A stretch of 64,000 nt of DNA from Candidatus Xenobium occultum (GTDB lineage: Bacteria > Vulcanimicrobiota > Xenobia > Xenobiales > Xenobiaceae): contig DIWH01000070.1 of assembly GCA_002423485.1 (NCBI GenBank), positions 25,429 to 89,428 on the forward strand. Direction: 5' to 3'. A program made the translations under genes and the position numbers. The notes below the pieces were generated by a model. It was not told the DNA's origin and did no database searches. It was given only the letters and a program-made list of their open reading frames with translations. Positions 38,318-57,190 of the stretch are shown piece by piece (positions within the stretch are counted from its first letter, which is position 1; each line of letters starts with the position of its first letter).

Positions 38318-38427
38318 CTTATATCCTCCAAACAGCGTGGAACCCAACCACCCAGCCCTCCGCTTGAGGCGGACGACCGAACGGCTGGGTCAATCGGAAT
38401 CGGTCCGCAAAGCGGACTTGAGAAGAA

Positions 38428-40170
38428 CTACCACTCGCCGGTACTTTCGACGTAGACCACGCGGAGACATTCCTCCATGGAGGTGACTCCAGCCAGGACC
38501 TTGTTGATGCCATCCTCCTGCATGACGCGCATGCCATCCTCGGTCGCCGCCTGCTTGATCTCCGCCGTCGAACTCCGGTGGAGGACCAGGCCTCGAACCC
38601 GGTCGGTCATGGGCATGATTTCGTGAATGCCCGTCCTTCCGCGGTAACCCGTCATCTTGCAGTGGTCACAACCACGGCCACGATAGAAGCTCAATTCGGA
38701 ATCCGAATACATGGCCAGGCCGAAGCGCTTGACGGCCTCTGGAGTCGGAGAATACGATTCCTTGCAGTTCGGACAGATCGTGCGGGCCAGGCGCTGCCCC
38801 AGGACCCCGATGACCGACGAGGCCACCAGGAAGGGCTCCACCCCCATTTCGATCAGTCGCGAGACGGCGCCGGCGGCGTCGTTGGTGTGCAGGGTCGAGA
38901 GGACCAGGTGGCCCGTCAGGGCCGCCTCGACGGCGATGCGGGCGGTCTCCTGGTCGCGAATCTCACCGACCATGATGATGTCGGGGTCCTGCCGCAGAAA
39001 CGAGCGCAGGGCCGAGGCAAACGTCAGATTGGCCTTGGTGTTCACCTGGACCTGGTTGACCCCCGGCAACTGGTATTCCACGGGGTCCTCAATGGTCAGG
39101 ATGTTGGTGGTGCCGGTGTTGAGCTTGTTCAGACAGGAATAGAGGGTGGTGGACTTCCCCGATCCCGTCGGTCCCGTCACCAGGATCATTCCATAGGGCT
39201 TCTCAACGACATCCTCAAAGAGCCGCTGGTTCTCTTCCGAGAAGCCCAACTTGTTGAGGCCGAGCATGACCGAGCCCTTGTCCAGGATTCGCATGACGAC
39301 CTTCTCACCGTGGATGGTGGGAACCGTCGAGACGCGAAGGTCGAACTCGCGACCGTCGTGGCGCAAGTGGATCTTGCCATCCTGGGGGATCCGGCGTTCG
39401 GCGATGTCCATGGTGGCCATGATCTTGATTCGGCTGACCATGGGCGCCTGGATGTGCTTGGGGGGGCTCATCACGTCGTGGAGCACGCCGTCCACCCGAT
39501 AGCGGACGCGAACGGAGCGGGCTTCGGGCTCGATGTGGATGTCCGAGGCCTTGTCGTTGATGGCCTGGGAGATGATCAGGTTGACCACACGGACGATAGG
39601 CGCCTCATCCACGAGCTCCTTCAGCTTGTCCAGGGCGATCTCTTCCTCGATCTCGTCCTCGACCTCCATGGCGCCGAACTCGGTGGCCGAAATCTCCTTG
39701 ACCGTATCCTCCACCGCGACCATGTCGGTCACGCCGAAGAGGCGGGCGATGGCCTTGAGAATCTCCTCTTCGGTGGCGATGACCGGCTCGATGTCAAAAC
39801 CCGTGATCAGGCGAATGTCATCGATGGCCAGGACGTTCAGCGGGTCGACCATGGCCAGGGTCAGACGGTTGTCCTTCTGGGCCACGGGGATCACCTTGTA
39901 GCGCTGAGCCAGGTGCTCGGGAATCGACTTGGCCAGGTCGACGTCCAGGTCGATGCGGTCCAGGTCGACGAAGGCGACCCCCATCTGTTTGCCCATGGAC
40001 TCGACGATGTCCTTGTCGGACACGAACCCCATCGAAACCAGGGTCTTCTGAAGAGGTTCCCCCCGGCGCTCGGCGTCTGCCTTGGCCTTCTCCAGTTGGC
40101 GCTCGGTGATGAAGCCTTCCTCGACCAGCAACCGGCCAAGGTCTTCGTTGGACCGCGTAATCATCGACAA
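38428..40170 (-). CDS. pilB: type IV pilus extension ATPase
   Basis: N-terminal GSPII domains, Walker A GPTGSGKST, the tetracysteine CPNC...CDHC motif and the GspE signature. Confidence 0.9.
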   Translation of the reverse strand: MSMITRSNEDLGRLLVEEGFITERQLEKAKADAERRGEPLQKTLVSMGFVSDKDIVESMGKQMGVAFVDLDRIDLDVDLAKSIPEHLAQRYKVIPVAQKDNRLTLAMVDPLNVLAIDDIRLITGFDIEPVIATEEEILKAIARLFGVTDMVAVEDTVKEISATEFGAMEVEDEIEEEIALDKLKELVDEAPIVRVVNLIISQAINDKASDIHIEPEARSVRVRYRVDGVLHDVMSPPKHIQAPMVSRIKIMATMDIAERRIPQDGKIHLRHDGREFDLRVSTVPTIHGEKVVMRILDKGSVMLGLNKLGFSEENQRLFEDVVEKPYGMILVTGPTGSGKSTTLYSCLNKLNTGTTNILTIEDPVEYQLPGVNQVQVNTKANLTFASALRSFLRQDPDIIMVGEIRDQETARIAVEAALTGHLVLSTLHTNDAAGAVSRLIEMGVEPFLVASSVIGVLGQRLARTICPNCKESYSPTPEAVKRFGLAMYSDSELSFYRGRGCDHCKMTGYRGRTGIHEIMPMTDRVRGLVLHRSSTAEIKQAATEDGMRVMQEDGINKVLAGVTSMEECLRVVYVESTGEW

Positions 40171-42188: not shown

Positions 42189-42620
42189 TCACCACGGATC
42201 CTCCGGACGCGGTTGGCGACGGTCCAGGAAAGCCTGCAGGATCAGGACGGCGGCAACCCGGTCCACGGCCATCCGGCGCTCGGCGCCTCGGGCCCCGGCC
42301 TGCTGCATCGAGCGGTGAGCCTGGACGGTCGTGAGGCGCTCGTCCTCCAGGTGAACGGGCAATCCCAGGGCCCGTGCCAGTCGCTCGGCGAAATGCTGGG
42401 CCGCCTGAGCCTCCGGGCCCAAGGTGCCATCGGTGCGTCGGGGAAGGCCCACAACCACCTCCTCGACGCCCAGATCACGGACCCTGGAACGCAACTGTGC
42501 GACCAGGCCGTCGCGATCCCTGCCATCCAGGGTCTCAAGAGAGGTTGCCAGGATCCCGGAAGGGTCAGAGAGGGCGAGACCGACCCGGCGCTTGCCCAGA
42601 TCGATTCCCAGGATCCTCAC
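42189..42620 (-). CDS. ruvX: Holliday-junction resolvase-like nuclease YqgF/RuvX
   Basis: VRILGIDLGKRRVGLALSD RNase-H-like N-terminus. Its GTG start overlaps the recO TGA stop (GTGA). Confidence 0.85.
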   Translation of the reverse strand: MRILGIDLGKRRVGLALSDPSGILATSLETLDGRDRDGLVAQLRSRVRDLGVEEVVVGLPRRTDGTLGPEAQAAQHFAERLARALGLPVHLEDERLTTVQAHRSMQQAGARGAERRMAVDRVAAVLILQAFLDRRQPRPEDPW

Positions 42621-43363
42621 GAGCCCCCCAGCAGGCTTCGCAGCACATCGCGCGAGCGCAAAGCCTGTGGATGATGGTACTGCAGGTGCTCGAAGAGCGC
42701 GCGCTCGACCTCCCGCGTGGCCTGGACGGGAAGGCGCACCCGGAGTGCCGATTCCAGGCGACAATCTCGCAGGTGGCGCAAGGCGGCACGGGCGGGGGGC
42801 GATAGGACCGTGCCCGCCGGACTCTGCGCGCAGCGACAACTCCGGCAGACGGTCCCCCCGCTTTCGGCCGAGAACCAACCCGGGTCGGGGGCGCCGCACA
42901 GCGCACATGCTTCGAGTTGAGGTGCGTAGCCCAGGAGATCGGCCAGGCGCAGCTCAACCCAGCGGCACAGGAGCGGGGTTTGAGCAGCCTGAAGGTTGTC
43001 CAGGGCCTGGACCAGCAGTCCATACAACTGCGGGCAGGGCTCGCCCGGAGCCGAGGCCCCGCCGACCAGGTCCACCAGGTAGCTGGCCAGCAGCAATCGC
43101 TCCAAGTCCCGATGCAGATCAGGGCGGGCGCAGTGGACCTCCGCCTGGGTCAAATGGTCCAGCGAGCGTCCCTGGGCGAAGAGACCGGACAGCTCGGTGA
43201 AAGGTTCAATCCGCCCGACCAGGGGACTGGACGACCTCCTGGACCCGCGCACGGCCGCCTCGAAACGCCCCCGGTCCGGCGAAAGGAGCGAGACGATCTC
43301 GTCAGCCTCGCCCAGAGGGCGACGCTTCAAGACCAGGACCAACGCTTTATAGAGTCTGCTCAT
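42617..43363 (-). CDS. recO: DNA repair protein RecO
   Basis: Typical size, an N-terminal OB-fold, and a C-terminal C4 zinc motif (CALCG...CRSCRC). Confidence 0.8.
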   Translation of the reverse strand: MSRLYKALVLVLKRRPLGEADEIVSLLSPDRGRFEAAVRGSRRSSSPLVGRIEPFTELSGLFAQGRSLDHLTQAEVHCARPDLHRDLERLLLASYLVDLVGGASAPGEPCPQLYGLLVQALDNLQAAQTPLLCRWVELRLADLLGYAPQLEACALCGAPDPGWFSAESGGTVCRSCRCAQSPAGTVLSPPARAALRHLRDCRLESALRVRLPVQATREVERALFEHLQYHHPQALRSRDVLRSLLGGS

Positions 43364-43404
43364 CAGGTCCTGGAGTTCGCCTCAACCGGGGGCGGAGTTC
43401 CGGG

Positions 43405-44445
43405 TCAGTAGGTCCCGGCGCCGGCCGACTCACCCTTCACGATCTTCACCGAGGCACTGGCTCCGATGCGGGTGGCCCCCGCCTCGATCATCTTCTGGGC
43501 GGTCTCGAAATCGCGGATTCCTCCAGACGCCTTGACCCCGATATTGCGGCCGACCGTCCGACGCATGAGGGCGACGTGGTGGGCGGTGGCGCCACCCGGC
43601 CCGAAACCCGTGGAGGTCTTCACGAAGTCCACTCCGGCCCGCCGTGCCAGATGACAGGCCCGGACCACCTCGTCATCGGAGAGCAGTGCCGTCTCCAGGA
43701 TGGTCTTGACCAGGCGCCCACCAGCCGAGAGCACCACTTCGCGGATATCGCTTTCGACCAAATCATCCTGACCGTTCTTCAAAGCCCCGATGTTGATCAC
43801 CATGTCGATCTCATCGGCGCCGTTGGCAACGGCATCCCGGGTTTCCATGACCTTGGTGATGGTCGTCGTGGCCCCCAAAGGAAAGCCCACCACCGTACAG
43901 ACCTTGACCCCGCTGCCCCGCAGGGCCTCGGCAGCCGTCCGCACCCAGGCGGGGTTGATGCAGACCGACGCAAAGCTGTGGGTGCGCGCTTCCTCACACA
44001 GGTGAAGGACCTCTTCGCGGGTCGCATCGGGCTTGAGGAGGGTGTGGTCGATCATGGCCCCCACCTCGCGTCCGGTGATCCGGTTGCCCAGCCCACTGCC
44101 CACGCGGTCGGCGCCGGCCTCGATGACGGCCTGCACCTTCTGGGGGATCAAGGTGGCGCAGTGCCCCAGGCCCAGGCATTCCCCGGTCAACTGAGCCGGA
44201 CACCCCTGCCCACAGCCGACGCTGAAAGCGGTTGGAGCGTTGGGCAGGGTCATGGAAGGCGGCGGGGTGGGAGTCCACTGTGGAGGCGAGGGGGCAACTG
44301 CCGGGACCGGCGCCGGGGCATTCGCCCCGCGCAGCTCGTGCATGACCTCCTCGGTGATCCGAGCCACCAAGGCTTCAATGTCCACCGGGTTCACCTCCAC
44401 ATGACCGTACTTCCGGGATTCAAGTCCCCCGACTTGTGGGGTCAA
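43405..44445 (-). CDS. deoC: deoxyribose-phosphate aldolase with a ~115-aa N-terminal extension carrying an encapsulation-peptide-like helix and a Cys4 motif
   Basis: The DeoC core begins at [13 protein letters not shown] and has the Schiff-base Lys region [10 protein letters not shown]. Upstream are the amphipathic helix [18 protein letters not shown], a Pro-rich linker and then [20 protein letters not shown]. The track start is a TTG and the true start is uncertain. Confidence 0.8.
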
Positions 44446-44508
44446 AGACCCCTGTGTGAAAAGGTTCTGCTGGCTGGCAGGGTGCCATCCGAGCTCCCCT
44501 CCAGAACC

Positions 44509-44889
44509 TCACCCTGCCGCCTTCGAAGCCCGACGGGCGCGGCGGCTGGCCGCCTTCGCCGCAGAGGGGCCTTCGTCCTGCGCGCCTGGGGCCGAAGCCA
44601 GGACGGGAGTGTCGGGCGACTGGATGTCCAGACGGTCCACGATGCCCACCACCACGGCCTCGGCTGGAGTCCGGGGATCGGCCAGGACCTGCCGGGAGGA
44701 GCTGCCCTCGTAGACAACCAGGACCGTGTCTCCCGAACCACTGCCGACCGAATCCACGGCCAGCACGGTTGGACCGCCCACCTCCCCGGTGAGGGGATCC
44801 TCCGGGACCACCAGGACCAGGCGAACCGAATCAAAGGAGGGATGCTGGGCCGTGGCCCAGAGGCTGCCGACCACGCGCCCCAGGATCAT
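44509..44889 (-). CDS. BMC vertex (pentamer) protein, EutN/CcmL/PduN family, with a basic C-terminal tail
   Basis: MILGRVVGSLWATAQ...VLAVDSVGSGSGDTVLVVYEGSSSRQ matches the BMC-P consensus. Confidence 0.8.
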   Translation of the reverse strand: MILGRVVGSLWATAQHPSFDSVRLVLVVPEDPLTGEVGGPTVLAVDSVGSGSGDTVLVVYEGSSSRQVLADPRTPAEAVVVGIVDRLDIQSPDTPVLASAPGAQDEGPSAAKAASRRARRASKAAG

Positions 44890-45152
44890 CGCAGGTCCAT
44901 CCCGTCCACCAGCCCGACGATGGCGGCATCGATGGGAGCCAAGGGCTGGGGCCAGGGAATGGTCGCCTCCCGCCCCTTGACCAGATAGACCAGGTCGCCT
45001 TCACGACAGGCCACCGTGTCCACGGCGACGATCAACCCACCCTGGTGGGCTCCGTCATGGTTCACCGGTTGCACCACACGCAGGACGGCGCCCTCCAGGT
45101 CCGGGACCTTTCGGGTGGCCACCAGATTCCCGCGGACCACGCCCAGGAACAT
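44886..45152 (-). CDS. BMC vertex (pentamer) protein, EutN/CcmL/PduN family
   Basis: MFLGVVRGNLVATRK...LIVAVDTVACREGDLVYLVKGREA. There is an ATGA overlap with the previous gene. Confidence 0.8.
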   Translation of the reverse strand: MFLGVVRGNLVATRKVPDLEGAVLRVVQPVNHDGAHQGGLIVAVDTVACREGDLVYLVKGREATIPWPQPLAPIDAAIVGLVDGMDLR

Positions 45153-45614
45153 CTAGACCGGACCAGCCAGGAAGCGACGCTCGATCTGCAGCATCTTCTC
45201 GATGCGGCGGGCGTGCCGCTGTCCGCCAAAGGGGGTGCAGAGCCAGGTCTTGACGATGTCCCGGGCCAGGCCCACCCCGGTGACCCGACCGCCCAGGGTC
45301 AGGACGTTGGCGTCGTTGTGCTCGCGGGAGTTCTTGGCCGTGAAGGTGTCGTAGCAGGGGGCTGCTCGGACGCCGGGCACCTTGTTGGCGGTCATGGCCG
45401 AACCAATCCCGGCGCCATCCACCATGATACCCAGGGTGCGCTCCGGATCCGCGGCGACCGCGCTGGCCACCAGCAGGGCGATGTCCGGATAGTCCACCGG
45501 ATCGACGCTGTGGGTCCCGTAGTCCACGACCTCGTGGCCGAGCTCCCGGACAAAGCCGATCAGGTCCGTCTTCAGGGCAAAGCCCCCGTGATCACTGCCG
45601 ATGATGACTCGCAA
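45153..45614 (-). CDS. rpiB: sugar-phosphate isomerase RpiB/LacAB family
   Basis: (M)RVIIGSDHGGF...AVLTLGGRV motifs. The TTG start at 45614 has a GGAGG SD 8 nt upstream. Confidence 0.8.
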   Translation of the reverse strand: MRVIIGSDHGGFALKTDLIGFVRELGHEVVDYGTHSVDPVDYPDIALLVASAVAADPERTLGIMVDGAGIGSAMTANKVPGVRAAPCYDTFTAKNSREHNDANVLTLGGRVTGVGLARDIVKTWLCTPFGGQRHARRIEKMLQIERRFLAGPV

Positions 45615-47139
45615 CTTCCATTCCTCCGTGCAGGCGCCAGGAAGACGCCGGGCGGGGCCAGACTTCCGCCCTCGGGGGGCGTTCTCCTCTGTAGCGGACC
45701 ACCCGCGTGCAGGCCGAAGGCAGCCAGGCCCTCCCATCAGGACGCTGGCGGCCCCGCTCGCGCCACAGCACCTGGTCCAGAGCCGATTCCAGGCCGGTGC
45801 GGACCACCAGGGGGTGATTGGGCGTGGTCACCAGCCAGACGACCTTGCGCCCCAGCAGCGCCTTCAGGTTCTCCTGATCCGGGATGTCCAGGGGCGTCAA
45901 CCAGTCGGGGGGCACCCCATAGTACAGCAAGGGAGCAGCCATCATGGAGGGTTGGACCAGGATGACCGCGTCGACCGGTGCGTCGCGCCGAATCTCCGTG
46001 GCGACGGCTCGCCAGTCCTGGTTCACCGCGGCCGGGTGGAAGACCAGGAGGCCCCAGGCGACCAGATGAACGAGCACGAGTCCCCAGAGGATGGACCGGG
46101 TCCAGCGACCTGGAGGGTCCAGGATCTCTCCTTGGAGCAAAGCCAGAAAGGGAGCGCACCAGACGAAATACTTGAACTCGAAGACCTTCAGCGGAGTGAG
46201 CTGCGAGACCAACCACGCCAGAAGCGGGGGAACAACCAGCCACGTGAGCGGATCGAGCCCTCGGTTCAGGCGCAGCGCCGCCAGCACGAAGGCCAGAGGG
46301 ATGGCTGCCAGGGCCAGGTAGACCGAGGCTCCGGCCTCCAGCAGATCTGCCGAGGCCATCCGCCCGGCCAGTTCGGGAAGAGCCAACCACCCAGGCCGGC
46401 CCCGAAGCTCGAGGTCCTGGGCACCCAGTTGTCCCAACAAGGAAGGGATCCAGGGGATGAAGAGCAGCATGGCGACCGCGGTGGCGCCCATCCAGGCGAC
46501 CCTCCGGTCGCGGCGATGTCGCAGCATCCACAGCCCACTCAACACGGGCGCGAACAAGCCGAAGAAGTGGACCCAGAAGGCGGCGCCGGCGGAAAGGGCC
46601 GAAAGGGCCAGCCAGCTCCGCCCCCCGGTTCGGGCGAAGCGCACGAAGGCTGCCAGATGTCCCAGGACCAGCAACCCCAGCAGCGGGTACATGCGCAACT
46701 CGCGGCTGTACTGGATGTGCCAGGCCGAAGTGGCCAGGAGCAGACCGGCCATCACCACTCCCGGTCCCAGGGCCCGCCGCCCCCCTCGAAGCTCGGTCCC
46801 CAACCAGACGGTGGCGGGGATTGCCAGGAGCCCGGCCAGGGCTGAACTGGCCCGCAGCCAGGCTTCGGAGTGGCCCAGCCAGGCCCAGAGGTGGAGAGCC
46901 AGGAACCACCCGGGCGGGTGGACCTCGTGAATCTCGCGCATCAGCCCCGGGATCCCGGCGGGCTCGCGACCGGCCAGGAACGCGATGAAGACCCCGATGC
47001 CCTCGTCCACGGTCAGGCTGGCGGCGCCCAACTCGACCAGGCGCAGGCTCCCGGCAACGGCCACCAGGGCGACCAGGGTCCAGGAAAGCGAGAGGCGGCC
47101 TCCCACCGGGTGGGGGCCGCCTCGGGCCGGGGCAGTCAC
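45592..47139 (-). CDS. GT39/PMT_2-family (ArnT-like) integral-membrane glycosyltransferase
   Basis: About 12 transmembrane helices with the ArnT/PMT-like N-terminal region LSLSWTLVALVAVAGSLRLVELGAASLTVDEGIGVFIA. The GTG start is 2 nt after the aldehyde dehydrogenase stop, and the 3' end overlaps rpiB by 23 nt. The upstream 200 codons of the 717-aa track ORF are discarded as overlap with the aldehyde dehydrogenase gene. Confidence 0.7.
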   Translation of the reverse strand: MTAPARGGPHPVGGRLSLSWTLVALVAVAGSLRLVELGAASLTVDEGIGVFIAFLAGREPAGIPGLMREIHEVHPPGWFLALHLWAWLGHSEAWLRASSALAGLLAIPATVWLGTELRGGRRALGPGVVMAGLLLATSAWHIQYSRELRMYPLLGLLVLGHLAAFVRFARTGGRSWLALSALSAGAAFWVHFFGLFAPVLSGLWMLRHRRDRRVAWMGATAVAMLLFIPWIPSLLGQLGAQDLELRGRPGWLALPELAGRMASADLLEAGASVYLALAAIPLAFVLAALRLNRGLDPLTWLVVPPLLAWLVSQLTPLKVFEFKYFVWCAPFLALLQGEILDPPGRWTRSILWGLVLVHLVAWGLLVFHPAAVNQDWRAVATEIRRDAPVDAVILVQPSMMAAPLLYYGVPPDWLTPLDIPDQENLKALLGRKVVWLVTTPNHPLVVRTGLESALDQVLWRERGRQRPDGRAWLPSACTRVVRYRGERPPRAEVWPRPASSWRLHGGMEVASHHRQ

Positions 47140-47141
47140 GC

Positions 47142-48593
47142 TCAGACGATCCGGAAACGATCGACCAGGACGCAGCGACGCTGCCTGGTGAAGGAGCGCG
47201 CCGAGGTCATCCCGTCCCCGGTGGTCCCGGCGATGGTCAAGGTGGTGTGGCCCTCCCCACCAAAGCCCAGCCCGGCGTAGCTCGGGCCGTTCTTGACGAA
47301 GATGTTGGTGTTGACCAGACGCGCCATGCGCGACAGGTTGTCGACATTGCGTGAGTGCATGACGGCCGTATGGTAGCAACGCCCTTCGGCTTCGACAGCC
47401 AGGGAAATCGCTTCGTTGACGTCGCGAACCCGGACCACGGGAAGCACGGGCATCAACTGCTCCTCCCGCACCAGGGGATGGTCTGCCGGAGTCTCGGCCA
47501 GCAACAGCCGCGTCTCGCGGGGCAGGTCCAGGCCGATCATCTTGGCGATGTCGGAAGCGTGCTGACCGACCAGGTCGCGATTCAGGACCACCCCGGTGCG
47601 GCCGACGGCCGGAGGCTGGAAGATGAGCCGGGACAATTCCTCGAGCTGACGGGGGTTCAGCAGATGACAGCCCTCCCCCAGAGCCTTCTGGAGGAACTCG
47701 CGATACACCGACTCGACGACGAAGACCACCTTCTCGCAAGAGCACATCACGTTGTTGTCGAAGGAGGCGCCAGCCACCGTGTCCCGGGCTGCCTGGGCCA
47801 GATCGGCGGTCTCATCCACCACCACCGGTGGATTCCCAGGCCCGGCGGCGATGCACTTCTTGCCCGACCGCATGGCCTCGTGGACCACCCCAGGGCCGCC
47901 GGTCACCACCAGACAGTCGATGCCGGGGTGCTTCATCAGGGCCTGGCTGGTCTGCTGGGTGGGCTCGGCCACACTGTTCAACAGGCTTTCCGGTCCACCC
48001 GAGCGCGCGATTGCCCCATTGAGCAGGACCATCATCTTCAGGCAGCAGCCCTTGGCACGGGGGTGGGGATTGAAGACCACGGCGTTGCCGGCGCACACCA
48101 TGCTGATCGAGTTGTTGATGATCGAGGCCACGGGGTTGGTGGTCGGGGTGATCGCCCCGATCACTCCGAAGGGCGCCAGCTCCATCAAGGTCAGGCCATG
48201 GTCCCCCGTGTAGACGGTGGGCTCGATGTCCTCCAAACCCGGGGTCTTGTGGATGGCCACCAGGTTCTTCTGATACTTGTCCTCGACGCGGCCCATCCCG
48301 GTCTCGGCGCAGGCCAGCTCCGCCATGGCCCGCGCGTTCTCCAGGGCAACCTCGCGCATGGCCCGGACGCACGCAGCCCGCTTCTCCAGAGGCAGTTCCA
48401 TCCAGCGCTGCTGGGCCTGCCGAGCGGCGGTCACGGCCTCATCCAGGGTCGCGAAGACACCGGCGCGCGGATCCGGAGGGGGGGCCCCGAACGAGGTTGG
48501 CGGCGGCGGCGCGGCCGCCAGGGTGGCTCCCGCCGTGCAGCGACGCACGACCTCTTCAACGATCCGGGCGATCTGGGCTCGATCCACGTCCAT
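47142..48593 (-). CDS. CoA-acylating aldehyde dehydrogenase (EutE/PduP-like) with an N-terminal encapsulation peptide
   Basis: Catalytic Cys region VMCSCEKV and an ALDH fold. The N-terminal amphipathic helix MDVDRAQIARIVEEVVRRC is followed by a Pro/Ala linker. There is a strong AGGAGG SD. Confidence 0.9.
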   Translation of the reverse strand: MDVDRAQIARIVEEVVRRCTAGATLAAAPPPPTSFGAPPPDPRAGVFATLDEAVTAARQAQQRWMELPLEKRAACVRAMREVALENARAMAELACAETGMGRVEDKYQKNLVAIHKTPGLEDIEPTVYTGDHGLTLMELAPFGVIGAITPTTNPVASIINNSISMVCAGNAVVFNPHPRAKGCCLKMMVLLNGAIARSGGPESLLNSVAEPTQQTSQALMKHPGIDCLVVTGGPGVVHEAMRSGKKCIAAGPGNPPVVVDETADLAQAARDTVAGASFDNNVMCSCEKVVFVVESVYREFLQKALGEGCHLLNPRQLEELSRLIFQPPAVGRTGVVLNRDLVGQHASDIAKMIGLDLPRETRLLLAETPADHPLVREEQLMPVLPVVRVRDVNEAISLAVEAEGRCYHTAVMHSRNVDNLSRMARLVNTNIFVKNGPSYAGLGFGGEGHTTLTIAGTTGDGMTSARSFTRQRRCVLVDRFRIV

Positions 48594-48614
48594 GGTCTTC
48601 CTCCTGAAGGGGCG

Positions 48615-48914
48615 CTAGTGGGCGTCCTTGCGGTAGACGGTTTGACCTTCCATGTCGATGGTATCGACGATGGCCATGATCACCGCATCCACCGGGGTGT
48701 TCTGGGTCTGCGAGGTCTGACGCGCGGAGCTTCCGGCCACGACCAGGACGATCTCGCCCTGCCCGGCCCCCACCGAGTCCACGGCCACCAGGGGCTTGCC
48801 CTCCCCTTTCAGGGTCAGGTAGTCCACGGCCTGGACCAGGTGCAGCTTGGCCCCTTCGAGTTTGTGGTCCTTCTGGGTGCACACCACGGTGCCCAGGACC
48901 CGTGCCACGATCAT
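48615..48914 (-). CDS. BMC vertex (pentamer) protein, EutN/CcmL/PduN family
   Basis: MIVARVLGTVVCTQKD...PLVAVDSVGAGQGEIVLVVAGSSARQ. There is an ATGA overlap with the upstream gene. Confidence 0.85.
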   Translation of the reverse strand: MIVARVLGTVVCTQKDHKLEGAKLHLVQAVDYLTLKGEGKPLVAVDSVGAGQGEIVLVVAGSSARQTSQTQNTPVDAVIMAIVDTIDMEGQTVYRKDAH

Positions 48915-49687
48915 CGGAAACGCACCTCGATCCCGTTGCGGCTGGCGGTCTCCCGAGCCAGCGCGGTGACGATGCTGCCGGTGGCGACCTCCAGGACCTT
49001 CTGGCCGGCCTTTGCGGCAGCCAGGACATCCTCGTTGGTGACCACATCCCTTCCCCCTGAGGCCGAACCCGCCAGGCGAGACACTCCCTGAGAGAGGTGG
49101 GTGGCGATCCGCGCTGGAGGCTCCAGGCGCAATCCCATGCCCTGGACCGTGCGGACGTGCCCCTGGACCACCGCCAGGATCCCGCCAGGGATGCGGGAGG
49201 AGTGCCGGGTCAAGCGCTCGGCGTCGTCCCCTCCCGCCAGGACGGGAACCCCTTGAATCAGACCTGCCACAACGGCCGCCGTTGGGGGCGAATCCACCAA
49301 CAACAGGGCGGTGCGAGCCAGCACGTCCAGCGGGGCACAAGGCAGCACCACGGCCTCAACCGACCGGACCAGATCGTCCCACACCTCAGGCGGAGGGACG
49401 ACCTCATCCGGGCAGCGACCGAGCCCTTTGGTGATCCGGTCTACGGGATAGCCGGGCCAGTCCACCCCCACCCAGCGGACTCCTGCGACGGAACGCAGGG
49501 CCTGCCAGGCAGGGGTCTCCGCAGCCGCACCGGGAGCCCCGCACAACAAGATCCGACGGCCAGGCGAAACCAGGGCCTGGGTTTGGATCGATGGCGTGGG
49601 TGCAGGTTGTGCCCCCCCGACCGCAGATTGGGCCAGCACTTCGACCACCCGCTCCGTGATCAGGGCGATCAGGGAGTCGTGGTCCAT
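48911..49687 (-). CDS. BMC-associated protein of unknown function with an N-terminal encapsulation-peptide-like helix
   Basis: MDHDSLIALITERVVEVL helix then a Pro-rich linker. The C-terminal VVTNEDVLAAAKAGQKVLEVATGSIVTALARETASRNGIEV motif (VxTxxDV...TPLARD-like) could not be assigned to a known family from memory. Confidence 0.55.
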   Translation of the reverse strand: MDHDSLIALITERVVEVLAQSAVGGAQPAPTPSIQTQALVSPGRRILLCGAPGAAAETPAWQALRSVAGVRWVGVDWPGYPVDRITKGLGRCPDEVVPPPEVWDDLVRSVEAVVLPCAPLDVLARTALLLVDSPPTAAVVAGLIQGVPVLAGGDDAERLTRHSSRIPGGILAVVQGHVRTVQGMGLRLEPPARIATHLSQGVSRLAGSASGGRDVVTNEDVLAAAKAGQKVLEVATGSIVTALARETASRNGIEVRFR

Positions 49688-49701
49688 CGCTCAGGCGCCG
49701 G

Positions 49702-50010
<309 letters not shown>

Positions 50011-50159
50011 CTCTGTGCCTACCGCCTTTCAGGACGTTCTCCCGTCGCTGCGTCAGCGAGGGAAACAAGACTTTTCTGGCCTGTGACCCGACATTCCGGC
50101 CACAGGGACGCGCTCTGCGTTCGACGGGGTGATTCGGGTTCCTCCAGCCCGCAGAGGAC

Positions 50160-51059
50160 TCACTCGTAACCCAGGGCCCTCAGCCAGTCCGTGCGATCGC
50201 GCCAGTCGGGCTTGACCTTGACCCACAGATCCAGGAAGACCTTCTTGCCCAGAAGAGTCTCCAACTCGACGCGGGCCAGACTCCCGATCTTCTTGAGCGT
50301 GGCTCCGTTCTTGCCGACCAGGATGGCCTTCTGCCCCTCGCGCTCGACGTAGACCAGAGCACGAATGAACCAGGTGGAGGGATTGTCGCCTGGACGGAAC
50401 TCTTCCAGCCGGACGGCCACCGAGTGGGGAACCTCCTGGCGCGTGGTCAGCAACACCTTCTCACGGATGATCTCCTCCGCCAGGAGTTCCTGGTTCTGGT
50501 CGGAGACCTGGTCGGGTGGGAAATAGGGGTCCCCCAGTTGAAGCCGGGACAGCAGGCCGTGAACCAAGGGATCCAGATTCTGGCCCTCGAGCGCCGACAG
50601 GGGAAAGACCTCCTCGAAATCGGCCAGCCCCTGATAGGCCACGATGCGAGGCAACAGGGCCTCCTTGGGCTTGACCAGGTCCACCTTGTTGACGACCAGC
50701 AGCTTGCTGGCCTGGACCCCGGCCAGGAATTCGCCGACCCGGCGATCCTCGTCCGTCGGCATGTGGGTGCCATCGGTCACCAGCACCACGACGTCGGCCT
50801 CCCTCCCCTCCGTCTGGGCGGACTCCAGCATGCGCTTGCCCAGCACGTGCTCCGCGAGACAGAAGCCCGGGGTATCGACGAAGACCATCTGGTGCCCTGG
50901 ACCGTGGCGGACCCCCAGGATGCGCCTTCGGGTGGTCTGGGGCTTGGGCGAGGTGATGGCCACCTTGGTGCCCACCAGACGATTGAGCAGGGTGGACTTG
51001 CCCACGTTGGGCTTTCCTATCAGGGCGATGAAGCCACTGCGAAATTCAGACTGGCTCAT
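50160..51059 (-). CDS. era: GTPase Era
   Basis: G1 GKPNVGKST, G3 DTPG, G4 NKVD and a C-terminal KH domain. Only the last 299 codons of the 712-aa track ORF are taken. Confidence 0.9.
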   Translation of the reverse strand: MSQSEFRSGFIALIGKPNVGKSTLLNRLVGTKVAITSPKPQTTRRRILGVRHGPGHQMVFVDTPGFCLAEHVLGKRMLESAQTEGREADVVVLVTDGTHMPTDEDRRVGEFLAGVQASKLLVVNKVDLVKPKEALLPRIVAYQGLADFEEVFPLSALEGQNLDPLVHGLLSRLQLGDPYFPPDQVSDQNQELLAEEIIREKVLLTTRQEVPHSVAVRLEEFRPGDNPSTWFIRALVYVEREGQKAILVGKNGATLKKIGSLARVELETLLGKKVFLDLWVKVKPDWRDRTDWLRALGYE

Positions 51060-51877
51060 GACGGTTCGAGGCTCCCTTCCACGACCTGGTCGTAGCACCA
51101 ACGCGAAATCCGGGCGATGCGGTTGTCCACTTCCCAGGGTTCTCTGCCTTTTCGGGTCAAGACCGCCAGAACCCAGACCTTCCCACGGTCCTCCACGAGA
51201 CCCACGTCGTGGCGGACCCCTTCCAGTTCCCCGGTCTTGTTGTAGATCCGCGCACTGTAAGGAAGCCTGGCCGGAATCTTCTCGCGATACTGCTGGCGGG
51301 ACAGGATTTCCAGGGCCTCCTCGCGCCAGACTCCCTGGAGCACGTCGCCTTCCCACAGGGCGCGCAGGATCCGGACGCAATCTGCCGCGCTGGTCAGGTT
51401 GTCGCCTGCTGGCCCGGGCGGGTGCATGAACTTGCGGTTGAGCGCCGTGTTCCTGGCCCCAAGCCGGCCCAGGAGACGGTTGACCGAGTCGAATCCGAGC
51501 CGATCCAGAAGCAGATTGGACGCGGTGTTGTCGCTGACCACGATCATCAAGCGCGCCAGATCGCGCAAGGTCAATCGCAAGCCCGGATGCAGCTCGAAGA
51601 GAATCCCGGCGCCTCGAACCTGATCCCGAGCGCGCAGGGGCACCAGGGTCCCAGGGTCCTCCTCTCCCTCCTGAAAACGGCGGAAAAGTTCCAGGAGGAT
51701 CGGAACCTTGACGACGCTGGCTGCGGGGAACACCTCGCCGGGCCGGTGCACCCAGCCACGGCTTCCATCCAGGGGTTCCAGGGCCACCGCAGCCTCGGCA
51801 GGGAGGCGCGCCAGCTCCTCCTCCAGGCGTTCGGTGAGGCGATCGGGCCAGGGGAGGATTTCCGTCGAATCGGGCAT
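51056..51877 (-). CDS. class A beta-lactamase-like serine hydrolase
   Basis: SVVK (SxxK), SDN and KTG motifs in the correct order and spacing, 273 aa, no signal peptide. Confidence 0.7.
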   Translation of the reverse strand: MPDSTEILPWPDRLTERLEEELARLPAEAAVALEPLDGSRGWVHRPGEVFPAASVVKVPILLELFRRFQEGEEDPGTLVPLRARDQVRGAGILFELHPGLRLTLRDLARLMIVVSDNTASNLLLDRLGFDSVNRLLGRLGARNTALNRKFMHPPGPAGDNLTSAADCVRILRALWEGDVLQGVWREEALEILSRQQYREKIPARLPYSARIYNKTGELEGVRHDVGLVEDRGKVWVLAVLTRKGREPWEVDNRIARISRWCYDQVVEGSLEPS

Positions 51878-51921: not shown

Positions 51922-53805
51922 TCAGGACGCGCTAGGCAGACGCTGCGCCTTCTTCCGCGTCCGCGCGCCCAAGACCTCGGGGCGCGTCGTGCTGCGCGGG
52001 ATCCGCTGACGCAACTGACGCCGGATGAAGGTGGCGGTTTCCTCGTCAGGCCCCTCGCGAAGGGCCTGGCGGAGTTCCTTGCGTCCCTCCTCCGCACGCC
52101 CCGCAGAGCAGAGCGCCGCCCCCAGCCAGGCGCGGGTGTCGGCGCGCTCGGGCTGCTGGAGCAGGGCCTGCTCAAACCTGGCGATGGCCGGGTCGAACCG
52201 ACCTTCACGACACAGGACCCTCCCCAAGGCATACAGCAGCTCGCCGTCCAGGGGATTCTGCTGCAGAGCGCTCTCGAAAAGCACGGCCGCCTCGCCAAGG
52301 CGCCCCTCGTCGAAGAAGATCCACCCCAGGTTCAGGGCCGCCTCGGCGAACCCCGGGTCCAGGCGAAGGGCACGCTTGTAGGACTCACGAGCCCGCTCAG
52401 GTTCTTCCAGGTTCTCGTCCACCCAACCCAACTGGAAGCAGGCCGGTGCCGAGTCGGGCTCCAGCCGACACGCCTCCTCCAGGACCTGCCGGGCCCTCGA
52501 CCACTCGCCACGGCTTCCGTGGACGGCGGCCAGGAGCTCGAGCAGCGGGGCCTGGGCTCCCTGATGTTCCAAAGCCTTGCAGACCCAGGCCTGGGCCTCG
52601 TCCAGACGCCCCTGGCGCAGGCAACACAAGGCCAGACGGGTTTCGACCTCCTCCTGCAGCCCGGGATCGAGCTCCAGCGCGCGGAGCAGCTCGACCTCGG
52701 CCTCGGGCAACCGACCGGCCTGGAAGAGGGCCTCCCCCAGAAGCCAGCGGGCCTGGCCCCAGGAGCCGGCACAGCGCTGAAGGCTCTCGATGGCCAGGGC
52801 CAGGCTGCCCCGTTGCAGGTACAGACGCCCCAGGCCAAAGGCGGCCGGGTCCCGCAACTCCTGGACCTGCCCGTGCAGAACCTGCAGGAAATCCTCTTCG
52901 GCCTGATCGGAATTCCCCGTGTGGAAGCGGCACCATCCCAACTGCAGGCGGGCGGTCAGGTAGCCAGGGTCCTCCAGCAGCGTCTGCTCGAGAAGCGCCG
53001 TGCTCTCCTCCAGACGTCCCTCCGCAAAGAGAGCCGACCCCATGCCGCTCATGGAGCTGGCCAGGCCCGGTGACAGATCCAGGGCTTCCCGGAATGCCGC
53101 CAGGGCCTGTTCGGTCCGCCCCAGGTCCAGGCACGTCCACCCCAGGGCGTCAAAGCACGAGGCGTCGGTGGGGTCCAGGGCGATGGCCTGGCGGGCCACC
53201 TCCTCGGCGGCCTCCAGGCGGCTGCAACGATACAGCAGCCGGCCCAAGGCGAGGTGATAGGCCGCCTTCTGCGAGTCCAAGGAAATGGCGCGACGCAGCA
53301 GACGCTCGGCGGTTTCGTCATGGCCCTCGCGAGCCTCGACCAGCCCCAAGCCATACAGGGCTTCGGCACAGGTTGGATCCAGGGTGTGCGCGTTCTGGAA
53401 CTGGGCCCGGGCATCCGAAATGAGGTCCATGCGGCAGAAGGCATGCCCGGCTCGGAGGCAGCGCCGCACGATTCGGCGGCGCCGGTTCGGACTCAGTTCT
53501 GGCCGAGGCTCTGAAGGAATCCCCCCCGGAGGAATCGGCATGGATCGTGGGGCACCATAGTACAGGTGCTCGACGTATTCGATTTGCTCCGTCTGGAGCA
53601 GGCTGCGGACGCGGGCACAGGCGGGAGTCAATTCCTCCTTGGCCAGTTGCAGCAGCAGACCAGGCCGTCCCCGATAGGACAACACCTGACGTACACGGTC
53701 GCGGGGCAGTTCCGCGAGGACTTCACGCAGGTTGGACAGGATGCGGTCGAGACGACCCTCCTCCAGATCCTCGGGATGGGGCAACTCGAAGACGATGGCT
53801 TTCAA
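51922..53805 (-). CDS. TPR-repeat protein with an N-terminal ~90-aa domain of unknown function
   Basis: Twelve or more TPR units spanning residues ~130-600. Confidence 0.7.
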   Translation of the reverse strand: MKAIVFELPHPEDLEEGRLDRILSNLREVLAELPRDRVRQVLSYRGRPGLLLQLAKEELTPACARVRSLLQTEQIEYVEHLYYGAPRSMPIPPGGIPSEPRPELSPNRRRRIVRRCLRAGHAFCRMDLISDARAQFQNAHTLDPTCAEALYGLGLVEAREGHDETAERLLRRAISLDSQKAAYHLALGRLLYRCSRLEAAEEVARQAIALDPTDASCFDALGWTCLDLGRTEQALAAFREALDLSPGLASSMSGMGSALFAEGRLEESTALLEQTLLEDPGYLTARLQLGWCRFHTGNSDQAEEDFLQVLHGQVQELRDPAAFGLGRLYLQRGSLALAIESLQRCAGSWGQARWLLGEALFQAGRLPEAEVELLRALELDPGLQEEVETRLALCCLRQGRLDEAQAWVCKALEHQGAQAPLLELLAAVHGSRGEWSRARQVLEEACRLEPDSAPACFQLGWVDENLEEPERARESYKRALRLDPGFAEAALNLGWIFFDEGRLGEAAVLFESALQQNPLDGELLYALGRVLCREGRFDPAIARFEQALLQQPERADTRAWLGAALCSAGRAEEGRKELRQALREGPDEETATFIRRQLRQRIPRSTTRPEVLGARTRKKAQRLPSAS

Positions 53806-56827: not shown

Positions 56828-57190
56828 TCAGGAACCGACGACTCCCCCCAAAGCTGCTGTCAATGTCTCCAAGGCCAGGGCCGCGCCGTGGGTCTTGGAG
56901 GCCGGCAACCCGCCCAGGGCCTCGACGAGGTCCCCAGCCTCCAGAGCCAGGATCTCGGTCAAAGGAAGGCCTCGGACCGACTCGGCGAGCATGCTGGCCG
57001 AGGCGATGGCGGCCGCGCATCCGAAGGCACGGAAGCCCACCTCCTCCAGGCGGTCCTCGACCACCCGGGTCCAGAACTCGACCACATCTCCACAGACCGG
57101 ATTCTCCAGACGGGCGTGACCGGTCGCCGCGGACACCTCGCCGACATGACGAGGATGGTGGAAGTGGTCCAGAACGATCGGGCCATACAT
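56828..57190 (-). CDS. nifU: NifU/IscU-type Fe-S cluster assembly scaffold (N-terminal domain type)
   Basis: Three conserved Cys in CGDVVEF...GCAAAIAS context. An ATGA overlap with nifS suggests coupling. Confidence 0.8.
   Translation of the reverse strand: MYGPIVLDHFHHPRHVGEVSAATGHARLENPVCGDVVEFWTRVVEDRLEEVGFRAFGCAAAIASASMLAESVRGLPLTEILALEAGDLVEALGGLPASKTHGAALALETLTAALGGVVGS

What the first reader, a model, noticed from the sequence alone, without database searches (positions are those of the whole stretch)
45592..47139. GT39/ArnT-family polytopic membrane glycosyltransferase embedded in the middle of the BMC operon
BMC loci encode soluble shell and lumen proteins. A 516-aa protein with ~12 transmembrane helices does not fit a cytoplasmic proteinaceous organelle. 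Yet the gene is tightly coupled on both sides. Its GTG start is 2 nt after the aldehyde dehydrogenase stop, and its 3' end overlaps the rpiB TTG start by 23 nt. That argues against a recent unrelated insertion and for co-expression. Possible roles include glycosylating a sugar-phosphate-derived substrate or anchoring the compartment at the membrane. Misannotation through a frameshift is also possible.
Basis: seen in the sequence. Interest (0 to 1): 0.6.

Follow-up and report, generated by a model that had tools for sequence, protein, structure and literature searches.

The report
Envelope glycosyltransferase lodged in microcompartment operon
A real membrane sugar-transferase gene of the ArnT/PMT type has sat in the middle of a sugar-phosphate microcompartment operon across a whole bacterial phylum, but the evidence says it decorates the cell envelope and is not part of the protein organelle.

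Summary

The insertion is ancient. The same gene sits between ALDH and RpiB in about 18 era|SPU-BMC|recO loci of Eremiobacterota, down to 27-35% identity. One nested clade lacks it there. In at least two, probably three, genomes of that clade the orthologue lies elsewhere, typically beside an orthologous GT9 heptosyltransferase-family gene and a small GT2.

It has no encapsulation peptide and almost no cytoplasmic surface. Best reading: an envelope (probably LPS) glycosyltransferase that uses a polyprenyl-phosphate sugar and is co-transcribed with the organelle genes, not a BMC component. An in-frame GT-C::RpiB fusion in one lineage remains unexplained. Interest is modest.

The parts
45592..47139 (-). 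GT-C-fold membrane glycosyltransferase CDS (GTG start, 515 aa, TGA stop)
47002..47007 (-). Codons for D45-E46, the acidic motif at the start of the first outward (periplasmic) loop
   Evidence: Conserved in at least 90% of family members. It lies at the start of juxtamembrane helix 44-56 in the model.
46039..47088 (-). Membrane domain, residues 18-367: 11 TM helices plus juxtamembrane helices 44-56, 60-70, 77-88 and 253-262
   Evidence: DSSP on the AF2 model, hydropathy, and K+R density of 0.15-0.38 in inward loops against 0.05-0.10 in outward loops in all 20 sequences.
46912..46923 (-). Invariant V73-H74-P75-P76 motif
   Evidence: Invariant in alignments A2 and A3.
46687..46701 (-). Invariant E147-x-R149-M-Y151 motif (SRELRMY) at an outward-facing helix turn
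   Evidence: Invariant even when distant PMT_2 outgroups are included and within the family.
46165..46182 (-). Invariant F320-E321-x-K323-Y324 (FEFKYF) in an outward loop
   Evidence: Alignments A2 and A3.
45688..46038 (-). C-terminal alpha/beta domain, residues 368-484, inferred periplasmic; motifs PSMMAAPLLYYG and TPxHP
   Evidence: Secondary structure and pLDDT, invariant residues, topology count.
45592..45687 (-). Variable, disordered C-terminal tail (residues 485-515). Its last 23 nt (45592-45614) overlap rpiB in the +1 frame.
   Evidence: pLDDT below 50 from about residue 492. Tail length and sequence vary among orthologues, while the ...ASHHRQ* ending is fixed by the RpiB N-terminal coding sequence.
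45622..45627 (-). Shine-Dalgarno GGAGGA for rpiB, inside the GT coding sequence, 7 nt before the TTG at 45614-45612
   Evidence: Read directly.
47142..48593 (-). Acylating aldehyde dehydrogenase (BMC core enzyme), immediately upstream
   Evidence: Pfam Aldedh 2.3e-44; NCBIfam PRK15398 5.8e-192.
45153..45614 (-). RpiB (SPU signature enzyme), immediately downstream
   Evidence: Pfam LacAB_rpiB 1.1e-51; NCBIfam PRK05571 4.8e-52.
49702..50010 (-). BMC-H shell protein, first gene of the cluster
   Evidence: Pfam BMC 1.4e-30; TTG start read.
48911..49687 (-). Conserved hypothetical protein (258 aa) with an encapsulation-peptide-like N-terminal amphipathic helix
   Evidence: No Pfam hit. Present in all related loci. 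Sequence.
48615..48914 (-). BMC-P (EutN) no. 1; ATGA overlap with the upstream gene
   Evidence: Pfam EutN_CcmL 1.1e-28; junction read.
44886..45152 (-). BMC-P (EutN) no. 2
   Evidence: Pfam EutN_CcmL 1.3e-23.
44509..44889 (-). BMC-P (EutN) no. 3, 126 aa. The overlapping ORF 44442-44834 is spurious.
   Evidence: Pfam EutN_CcmL 1.3e-21; no hit for the alternative ORF.
43405..44445 (-). DeoC aldolase (SPU signature enzyme) with an N-terminal extension of about 125 aa carrying an EP-like helix and a Pro-rich linker
   Evidence: TIGR00126 deoC 6.1e-87; Pfam DeoC; sequence.

Best explanation
The gene encodes an active GT-C-fold glycosyltransferase of the PMT/ArnT type. Its N-terminus is in the cytoplasm. 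It has 11 TM helices. The catalytic Asp-Glu and the other invariant polar residues lie at the outer face of the inner membrane, and a C-terminal alpha/beta domain sits in the periplasm.

Like its closest structural relatives, it most likely takes a single sugar from a polyprenyl-phosphate carrier. That carrier would be loaded on the cytoplasmic side by a small GT2 encoded elsewhere. The enzyme would transfer the sugar to an envelope acceptor, most plausibly LPS core or lipid A.

It is not a shell, lumen or tethering component of the microcompartment. The gene was inserted between the ALDH and RpiB genes in an early ancestor of the Eremiobacterota era|SPU|recO locus. It has since been inherited vertically as a passenger of that operon. 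It is probably translated at a low level by re-initiation after the ALDH stop, because it has no Shine-Dalgarno sequence of its own. rpiB keeps a strong Shine-Dalgarno inside the 3' end of the GT gene. In one subclade the gene was moved out of the operon to sit beside GT9 and GT2 envelope-glycan genes, while the BMC operon closed up seamlessly.

**Shown:** the gene is real and under constraint; the fold; motif conservation; the phylogenetic distribution; the relocation pattern.

**Inferred:** topology; donor type; LPS as acceptor; co-transcription; absence of a direct BMC role.
For: **Fold and motifs.**
- The Foldseek top hit is ArnT.
- D45-E46 is conserved in at least 90% of sequences. VHPP, E147/R149/Y151, H191 and FEFKYF are invariant in BMC-embedded and non-BMC members alike.
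- 10 of 20 family members hit Pfam PMT_2 (best 1.4e-9) and 8 of 20 hit PMT.

**Topology.**
- K+R density is 3-4 times higher in the loops assigned to the cytoplasm in all 20 sequences. This puts the C-terminal domain outside the cytoplasm.
- The arrangement matches the 11-TM PMT architecture.

**No BMC targeting.**
- The N-tail is disordered and Gly/Pro-rich and missing in most orthologues.
- EP-like helices are present on DeoC and the conserved hypothetical.

**Ancient embedding.**
- The gene is in the same slot in the window and in L001/L085, L005, L009-L011, L013, L015, L017, L019, L020, L022, L025, L027, L056-L058 and L082.

**Relocation.**
- The GT-less loci form one nested clade with 91% bootstrap.
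- The non-BMC GTs form one clade with 99% bootstrap, nested among the BMC GTs. Monophyly of the BMC GTs gets only 2%.
- Assemblies JBFWNU01 (L012 + L002) and CAZDLH01 (L021 + L087) hold both a GT-less BMC locus and the GT elsewhere. JBJHCR01 (L047 + L007) probably does too.

**Envelope context outside the operon.**
- An orthologous GT9 (58-69% identity) is adjacent in L006, L007, L087 and L088.
- A small GT2 is adjacent in L006, L007 and L088.
- GT32 is adjacent in L089. UDP-glucose dehydrogenases and Poly_export are adjacent in L002.

**Other.**
- A cultured member of the phylum has an LPS-covered outer membrane (PMC9758169).
- The family sits in a large continuum of same-architecture GT-C proteins: 2,298 representatives at E <= 1e-30.
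Against: - No activity, donor or acceptor has been measured, and the window protein itself is below the Pfam and NCBIfam cutoffs.
- The gene has been kept in exactly the same mid-operon slot, tightly coupled on both sides, over very deep divergence. That is more than a neutral passenger strictly needs and is compatible with selected co-regulation.
- An in-frame GT-C::RpiB fusion ORF (632 aa) exists in two distinct strains. Such fusions often signal a functional link. With a periplasmic C-terminus, the full-length product would carry RpiB to the wrong side of the membrane. So either the fusion is a tolerated accident or the inferred topology is wrong.
- A distant PMT_2-like gene also sits at the end of a BMC locus in the sister ALDH lineage (L029). 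This hints at a recurrent association.
- No GT2 or GT9 partner lies within the 64-kb window.
- The trees are neighbour-joining only.
Confidence: 0.6

Rival explanations
1. Functionally integrated accessory enzyme. The GT-C is selected to be co-expressed with the SPU organelle because its chemistry is linked to the pathway. One version: it transfers a pentose whose polyprenyl-phosphate donor derives from the ribose-5-phosphate/PRPP pool handled by RpiB, as with decaprenyl-phospho-ribose/arabinose in mycobacteria. Another version: it remodels the envelope specifically while the cell feeds on nucleic-acid sugars.
For: - The gene keeps the same slot next to RpiB in about 18 loci down to 27-35% identity.
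- It abuts or overlaps rpiB in every lineage.
- It is fused in frame to RpiB in two strains.
- A distant GT-C also sits in the BMC locus of a sister lineage.
- Mycobacterial arabinosyltransferases (AftA, AftB, AftD, Emb) are among the fold matches.
Against: - One whole clade keeps RpiB and the complete BMC operon after the GT has left for a GT9/GT2 locus.
- SPU loci of other phyla have RpiB and no GT.
- The arabinosyltransferase matches are weaker than those to PMT and ArnT.
- No UbiA-type or DprE-type gene, and no GT2, lies in the locus or the window.
Confidence: 0.17
2. Membrane tether. The protein holds the microcompartment, or RpiB, at the cytoplasmic membrane.
For: The gene is embedded in the operon, and one lineage has the GT-C::RpiB fusion ORF.
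Against: - Cytoplasmic exposure is limited to loops of at most 11 aa plus a non-conserved, disordered 17-aa tail.
- There is no encapsulation-peptide-like helix, unlike DeoC and the 258-aa protein.
- The only soluble domain and the C-terminus are on the periplasmic side by the positive-inside rule and by homology.
- The catalytic motifs remain invariant, which a mere anchor would not require.
- The gene left the operon in one clade without any change to the BMC genes.
Confidence: 0.05
3. Substrate uptake. The polytopic protein is a diverged GT-C that now imports the BMC substrate (a sugar, sugar phosphate or nucleoside), analogous to EutH or PduF in other BMC loci.
For: Transporters are common ancillary genes of BMC loci (PMC4207490). 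Weak Foldseek hits to nucleoside transporter ENT1 appear at the bottom of the list.
Against: - The ENT1 hits have TM-score 0.13 and probability 0.28-0.35, which is noise.
- All strong matches are glycosyltransferases.
- The catalytic Asp-Glu and a conserved periplasmic domain are retained.
- No GT-C protein is known to act as a solute transporter (established knowledge).
Confidence: 0.03
4. Artefact or pseudogene: a long ORF created by high G+C content, a frameshift or a mis-assembly.
For: The window is 65% G+C and full of long spurious ORFs.
Against: - Orthologues are full length in independent assemblies.
- dN/dS is 0.17-0.26.
- The GT-C model is confident.
- 31 columns are invariant across the family.
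Confidence: 0.01

Closest known systems
ArnT (GT83), undecaprenyl-phosphate-L-Ara4N:lipid A transferase (PDB 5EZM/5F15)
   Same: - The N-terminus is inside, the acidic motif is in the first periplasmic loop with juxtamembrane helices, and there is a C-terminal periplasmic alpha/beta domain.
- Relatives that lie outside the BMC operon sit beside a small GT2 (ArnC-like role) and LPS-type GT9 genes.
   Different: - Only 15-16% identity, and no ArnT HMM hit.
- 11 TM helices rather than 13.
- No arn operon.
- The acceptor is unknown.
- The gene is embedded in a BMC operon.
Protein O-mannosyltransferases PMT1/2/4 (GT39; Pfam PMT/PMT_2)
   Same: - 11-TM architecture and an Asp-Glu motif in loop 1.
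- Half of the family members reach Pfam PMT_2 or PMT at E < 0.01.
   Different: - There is no MIR domain. The TM7-TM8 loop is only 31 aa.
- The window protein is below the Pfam gathering score (18.9 against 26.1 bits).
- It carries a C-terminal soluble domain that PMTs lack.
- A protein acceptor has not been shown.
Ancillary membrane proteins of BMC loci (EutH, PduF, MDR-type transporters of GRM2)
   Same: A polytopic inner-membrane protein encoded within a BMC gene cluster and presumably co-expressed with it (PMC4207490).
   Different: Those proteins are transporters of the BMC substrate. This protein has a glycosyltransferase fold with intact catalytic motifs and no homology to them.
SPU (sugar-phosphate utilisation) BMC loci of the Sutter 2021 / Axen 2014 catalogues
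   Same: The locus has the defining DeoC (PF01791), RpiB (PF02502), acylating ALDH, BMC-H and a BMC-P triplet.
   Different: No glycosyltransferase or PMT-type gene is mentioned for any SPU subtype in the main texts or in the supplements held. This locus also lacks BMC-T and is wedged between era and recO.

Membership tests
GT-C glycosyltransferase superfamily (fold level) | Polytopic membrane domain of 8-13 TM helices with the N-terminus in the cytoplasm | tested here: met
   11 TM helices in the AF2 model. The positive-inside rule holds in all 20 family members.
GT-C glycosyltransferase superfamily (fold level) | Acidic catalytic motif (DxD/DE type) in the first extracytoplasmic loop | tested here: met
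   D45-E46 is conserved in at least 90% of sequences, at the start of juxtamembrane helix 44-56.
GT-C glycosyltransferase superfamily (fold level) | Structural similarity to solved GT-C enzymes | tested here: met
   [not shown]
GT-C glycosyltransferase superfamily (fold level) | Uses a lipid-phosphate-linked sugar donor | not testable with these tools
   Needs biochemistry. Only indirect support is available: a small GT2 lies next to relatives outside the operon.
GT39 / Pfam PMT, PMT_2 | Score above the Pfam gathering threshold | tested here: not met
   Window protein: PMT_2 18.9 bits against a cutoff of 26.1, and no PMT hit. Family-wide, 10 of 20 members hit PMT_2 and 8 of 20 hit PMT at E < 0.01.
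GT39 / Pfam PMT, PMT_2 | Luminal MIR domain between TM7 and TM8 | tested here: not met
   The loop 241-271 is 31 aa with one short helix. No MIR hit.
ArnT (GT83) | Recognised by ArnT-specific models or by sequence similarity to solved ArnT | tested here: not met
   The best NCBIfam hit is Agl23 at 27.6 bits against 126, with no ArnT model. A profile search of PDB sequences finds nothing. Identity to 5EZM is 16%.
ArnT (GT83) | 13 TM helices and an arnBCADTEF genomic context | tested here: not met
   11 TM helices. There are no arn-type genes in the locus, and no GT2 or GT9 anywhere in the window.
ArnT (GT83) | Lipid A phosphate as acceptor | not testable with these tools
   Requires LPS mass spectrometry.
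BMC structural or encapsulated component | BMC (PF00936) or EutN (PF03319) domain, or an amphipathic encapsulation peptide on a soluble cargo | tested here: not met
   No such domain. The N-tail MTAPARGGPHPVGGRLS is disordered (pLDDT 44) and not conserved. EP-like helices occur on DeoC and the 258-aa protein instead.
BMC-locus substrate transporters (EutH, PduF/MIP) | Homology to EutH or MIP channels | tested here: not met
   No Pfam or NCBIfam hit. All fold matches are glycosyltransferases.
SPU-type BMC locus (context of the gene) | DeoC (PF01791) + RpiB (PF02502) + acylating ALDH + BMC-H + BMC-P in one cluster | tested here: met
   The definition is taken from PMC8217296.

The most novel reading that the evidence does not exclude
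The GT-C is a selected accessory of the sugar-phosphate microcompartment, not a passenger. Under this reading, Eremiobacterota couple catabolism of nucleic-acid pentoses in the organelle to envelope glycosylation. The coupling could work through a polyprenyl-phospho-pentose donor fed by RpiB. Alternatively it could be physical, as the in-frame GT-C::RpiB fusion seen in two strains would suggest. That would be the first membrane glycosyltransferase functionally wired to a BMC.
Probability: 0.12. Interest if true: 0.7.

Novelty: new member of a known kind. Interest (0 to 1): 0.3.

Why it matters
For BMC biology, this documents an SPU-locus variant that appears in neither published catalogue. The variant is phylum-wide, lies between era and recO, has a BMC-P triplet and no BMC-T, and carries a conserved GT-C gene mid-operon. 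It also cautions against reading every conserved gene of a BMC operon as an organelle component. Here comparative genomics catches the gene leaving the operon for an LPS-type locus with no change to the organelle genes.

For envelope biology, it defines a small, well-conserved PMT/ArnT-like family with clear invariant motifs (DE, VHPP, RELRMY, FEFKYF, PSMMAAPLLYYG). The family occurs in a poorly studied diderm phylum. It pairs with a GT9 and a small GT2, which makes a testable candidate LPS-modification module.

If the minority reading is right and the function is coupled to the organelle or to RpiB, it would be a new kind of link between a protein organelle and the cell envelope.

Tried and rejected
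- **Frameshift or spurious ORF.** Rejected on conservation, dN/dS, GC3 and the AF2 confidence.
- **Recent horizontal insertion.** Rejected. GC3 is native and the gene is in the same slot in deeply diverged loci.
- **Membership of GT39 or ArnT proper.** Rejected. The scores are below the cutoffs, there is no MIR domain, and there are 11 TM helices, not 13.
- **A 12-TM model with a cytoplasmic C-terminal domain.** This would have rationalised the RpiB fusion. It was rejected because it puts the RHRRDRR loop and the other Arg-rich loops outside the cytoplasm. The 11-TM model gives a 3-4-fold K+R enrichment inside in all 20 sequences.
- **Sequence search of PDB with the family profile.** Nothing found.
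- **AFDB50 fold search.** The library was not available.
- **Promoter and terminator scan of the cluster.** No sites found. This is uninformative for a phylum with unknown promoter types.
- **Rfam and tRNA scans of the window.** Empty.
- **Literature searches.** No prior mention of a glycosyltransferase in BMC or SPU loci, or of BMCs in Eremiobacterota or Xenobia.
- **My first annotation of a 130-aa ORF at 44442-44834.** It was wrong. The real gene is the third BMC-P at 44509-44889.
- **Metagenome scan with family motifs.** It added only three in-family loci, all BMC-embedded. The remaining 23 were distant PMT_2-like genes without BMC context.
- **The L029 GT-like gene.** It is no closer to this family than the outgroups are, so it was not counted as an orthologue.
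Full report
**1. The observation**

The feature lies on the minus strand. Translating 45592-47139 gives 515 residues and a stop.

Both junctions were read from the sequence:
- The aldehyde dehydrogenase ORF (47142-48593) ends with TGA at 47144-47142.
- Two bases follow, then the GTG at 47139-47137.
- The ORF stops with TGA at 45594-45592.
- The RpiB reading frame starts with TTG at 45614-45612, giving a 23-nt overlap.
- GGAGGA sits 7 nt upstream of that TTG, inside the glycosyltransferase (GT) coding sequence.
- No comparable Shine-Dalgarno sequence precedes the GTG. Translation by re-initiation after ALDH is therefore the likely mode (inference).

The surrounding genes on the same strand form a compact sugar-phosphate-utilisation (SPU) microcompartment locus:

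| Gene | Coordinates |
|---|---|
| BMC-H | 49702-50010 |
| conserved 258-aa protein, no Pfam hit | 48911-49687 |
| BMC-P no. 1 | 48615-48914 |
| ALDH | 47142-48593 |
| GT | 45592-47139 |
| RpiB | 45153-45614 |
| BMC-P no. 2 | 44886-45152 |
| BMC-P no. 3 | 44509-44889 |
| DeoC | 43405-44445 |

The cluster lies between era and recO-ruvX-yceG. No promoter- or terminator-like site was found inside it.

**2. It is a real gene**

The window is 65% G+C and rich in spurious ORFs. One of them misled me at 44442-44834 until. The GT ORF was therefore tested in three ways:
- Against orthologues in L009, L013 and L011, its dN/dS is 0.17-0.26. The transmembrane part and the C-terminal domain are each below 0.3. 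ALDH, RpiB and DeoC score 0.05-0.14.
- Its GC3 (0.83) matches the neighbours.
- An AlphaFold2 model built from a 31-sequence alignment reaches mean pLDDT 88.5 and pTM 0.88. Only residues 1-14 and about 492-515 are disordered.

Frameshift, mis-assembly and pseudogene are excluded.

**3. What the protein is**

Sequence models barely see it:
- Pfam PMT_2 scores 18.9 bits against a gathering score of 26.1.
- NCBIfam's best hit is Agl23 at 27.6 bits against a cutoff of 126.
- A family profile finds no solved structure by sequence.

Structure is unambiguous:
- Foldseek ranks ArnT first (E 3.7e-7, TM 0.56).

Across 20 family members, these positions are conserved, and nothing distinguishes copies inside BMC loci from copies outside:

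| Motif | Conservation |
|---|---|
| D45-E46 in the first outward loop | at least 90% |
| V73-H-P-P76 | invariant |
| E92, R96 | invariant |
| E147-x-R149-M-Y151 | invariant |
| H191 | invariant |
| R246-x-x-P249 | invariant |
| F320-E-x-K-Y324 | invariant |
| several C-domain positions (PSMMAAPLLYYG, TPxHP) | invariant |

Half of the members reach Pfam PMT_2 or PMT at E < 0.01. A profile search of 1.84 billion representatives finds 2,298 proteins at E <= 1e-30. Many of them match over the full length. The architecture is therefore common, although the tight family is small.

**4. Topology**

The model's helices, read with the positive-inside rule, give the following layout:
- The N-terminus is inside the cytoplasm.
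- TM1 is residues 18-34.
- An outward loop follows, with juxtamembrane helices 44-56, 60-70 and 77-88.
- Ten more TM helices follow.
- An outward-facing alpha/beta domain covers residues 368-484.

In all 20 sequences the loops assigned to the cytoplasm carry 0.15-0.38 K+R per residue, against 0.05-0.10 for the outward loops. All invariant polar residues fall on the outward side. This is the canonical GT-C orientation and matches the 11-TM PMT architecture.

Cytoplasmic exposure is limited to loops of at most 11 residues and a 17-residue Gly/Pro-rich tail that most orthologues lack. DeoC and the 258-aa protein, in contrast, begin with similar amphipathic helices. These read [20 protein letters not shown] and DSLIALITERVVEVLAQ, and they look like encapsulation peptides. 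The protein therefore offers nothing with which to bind a shell.

**5. Distribution**

A protein search named the closest relative 'glycosyltransferase family 39 protein [Candidatus Xenobium sp.]' at 85% identity, and found relatives in Vulcanimicrobiota (Eremiobacterota) MAGs.

Scanning one genome per GTDB species with the ALDH returned 47 loci. I mapped these by tblastn with all locus proteins and inspected ORFs. The result:
- **GT present.** The GT sits between ALDH and RpiB in the window and in L001/L085, L005, L009, L010, L011, L013, L015, L017, L019, L020, L022, L025, L027, L056-L058 and L082. GT identity falls to 27-35%. In nearly all of these loci the era...recO frame is the same.
- **GT absent.** It is missing, with ALDH followed by RpiB after about 15 nt, in L012, L014, L016, L018, L021, L023, L024 and L026.
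- **Other phyla.** SPU loci of other phyla (L028, L030-L055) have none.

**6. Gain once, moved once**

On a bootstrapped neighbour-joining ALDH tree, the GT-less loci (with the truncated L047) form one clade with 91% support. That clade is nested among GT-bearing loci, and monophyly of the GT-bearing loci gets 0%.

On the GT tree:
- the family has 98% support;
- the copies outside BMC loci form one clade with 99% support;
- that clade is nested among the BMC-embedded copies, and monophyly of the BMC copies gets 2%.

Three assemblies tie the two trees together:
- JBFWNU01 has a GT-less BMC locus (L012) and the GT 2.2 Mb away on the same contig (L002).
- CAZDLH01 has L021 and L087.
- JBJHCR01 has L047 and L007.

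Outside the operon the neighbours are envelope-glycan genes:

| Neighbour | Loci |
|---|---|
| Orthologous GT9 heptosyltransferase-family gene (58-69% identity) | L006, L007, L087, L088 |
| Small GT2 | L006, L007, L088 |
| GT32 | L089 |
| UDP-glucose dehydrogenases, Poly_export, MBOAT | L002 |
| Nothing informative | L086 |

A cultured member of the phylum has an LPS-covered outer membrane (PMC9758169).

The simplest history has three steps. The gene entered the operon in an early ancestor of this lineage. It was inherited vertically. In one subclade it was transferred to an LPS-type locus while the operon closed up.

**7. Mechanism proposed**

The protein is an ArnT/PMT-like enzyme. It would transfer a monosaccharide from a polyprenyl-phosphate carrier to a periplasmic envelope acceptor, most plausibly LPS core or lipid A. 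The carrier would be loaded by a GT2 encoded elsewhere.

Shown:
- the fold and the intact motifs;
- purifying selection;
- the phylogenetic pattern;
- the envelope context of the relocated copies.

Inferred:
- the topology, the donor class and the acceptor;
- co-transcription;
- the absence of a direct role in the organelle.

Confidence is about 0.6 for the whole statement. It is higher, about 0.8, for 'active periplasm-facing GT-C', and lower, about 0.4, for 'LPS'.

**8. What does not fit**

- In L001 (Logan SRR22372591) and L085 (JGI 3300044960, two contigs) the GT ORF runs in frame into RpiB, giving 632 aa. The two proteins differ at about 11 positions, so the fusion is not a single sequencing error.
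- The rpiB Shine-Dalgarno and TTG persist inside the fusion, so free RpiB can still be made.
- With a periplasmic C-terminus, the full-length product would export RpiB. The fusion may be a tolerated by-product of the overlapping junction, since the tail after ...RVVRYR is variable and disordered. It may instead be a hint that the coupling is more than positional.
- A distant PMT_2-like gene, split over two frames, also ends a BMC locus in the sister ALDH lineage (L029).

These points keep a functional link alive at roughly 0.15-0.2.

**9. Comparison with what is known**

Neither BMC catalogue mentions a glycosyltransferase in SPU or any other locus (PMC8217296 main text and held supplements; PMC4207490). 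Nothing was found on BMCs in Eremiobacterota or Xenobia.

Membrane proteins in BMC loci are known, but they are transporters. The gene is a new, divergent member of a known enzyme superfamily. The locus is an undescribed SPU variant.

**10. Verdict**

Interest is modest at 0.3. The most novel reading still open is an envelope glycosyltransferase functionally wired to a microcompartment or to RpiB. It has a probability of about 0.12 and would deserve about 0.7 if true.

Noticed in passing
window 42617-51090; loci L005, L011, L012, L014-L026, L056, L058, L085: The whole SPU BMC operon is wedged between era and recO-ruvX(-yceG) in the window and in about 25 Eremiobacterota loci. The same frame also appears in L028, which is labelled Bacillota. 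This looks like an ancient insertion at one fixed chromosomal site. In L082, an S1-P1 nuclease gene replaces era upstream.
   Followed up: partly
L001 2627-4525; L085 10001-11899: An in-frame GT-C::RpiB fusion ORF of 632 aa occurs in two distinct strains that differ by about 11 substitutions. The rpiB Shine-Dalgarno and TTG are retained inside it. The fusion is topologically odd if the GT C-terminus is periplasmic.
   Followed up: partly
window 50011-50159 (minus strand); alignment A4: The 149-nt era/BMC-H intergenic leader has long invariant blocks (TGGAGGAACCCGAA..ACCCCGTCGAACGCAG and GTCCTGAAAGGCGGTAGGCACAGAGTTG). It also has a hairpin (CCTGTGGCCGG...CACAGG) whose arms differ between relatives. 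There is no Rfam hit. Only 2 of 36 predicted pairs show compensatory change among the 5 close relatives. It could be a regulatory leader or an operator.
   Followed up: partly
window 48911-49687 (-) and 43405-44445 (-): The conserved 258-aa protein with no Pfam hit and DeoC both start with similar amphipathic helices: DSLIALITERVVEVLAQ and [20 protein letters not shown], the latter followed by a Pro-rich linker. These look like encapsulation peptides. The 258-aa protein has only a weak C-terminal match to TIGR02536 (eut_hyp).
   Followed up: no
window 44442-44889: The longest ORF here (44442-44834, 130 aa) is spurious. The real gene is a third BMC-P (44509-44889, 126 aa, with an ATGA overlap with BMC-P no. 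2) that carries a C-terminal Ala/Arg-rich extension of about 40 aa. The locus therefore has a BMC-P triplet, one BMC-H and no BMC-T.
   Followed up: yes
L029 9424-12269: In a sister ALDH lineage, the ALDH is followed by a PduS-like flavoprotein (Complex1_51K/SLBB/RnfC_N). After that comes a distant PMT_2-like GT-C split over two reading frames (10724-11437 and 11088-12269). It may be a pseudogene, an assembly error, or an independent GT-C/BMC association.
   Followed up: partly
record titles of L011, L013, L015, L016, L021, L026: Several MAGs whose loci cluster firmly with Vulcanimicrobiota/Xenobia, by synteny and on the ALDH tree, are labelled 'uncultured Burkholderiales', 'Burkholderiales bacterium' or 'Selenomonadaceae' in their records. 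These are probably taxonomic mislabels or mis-binned contigs.
   Followed up: no
window 1-64000: No tRNA gene and no Rfam family at gathering score was found anywhere in the 64-kb window. Other genes seen include type IV pilus-type ATPases (37226-40170), a large TPR protein (51922-53805), an SPFH/Band 7 protein (54111-55691) and a class-V aminotransferase (57190-58347).
   Followed up: no
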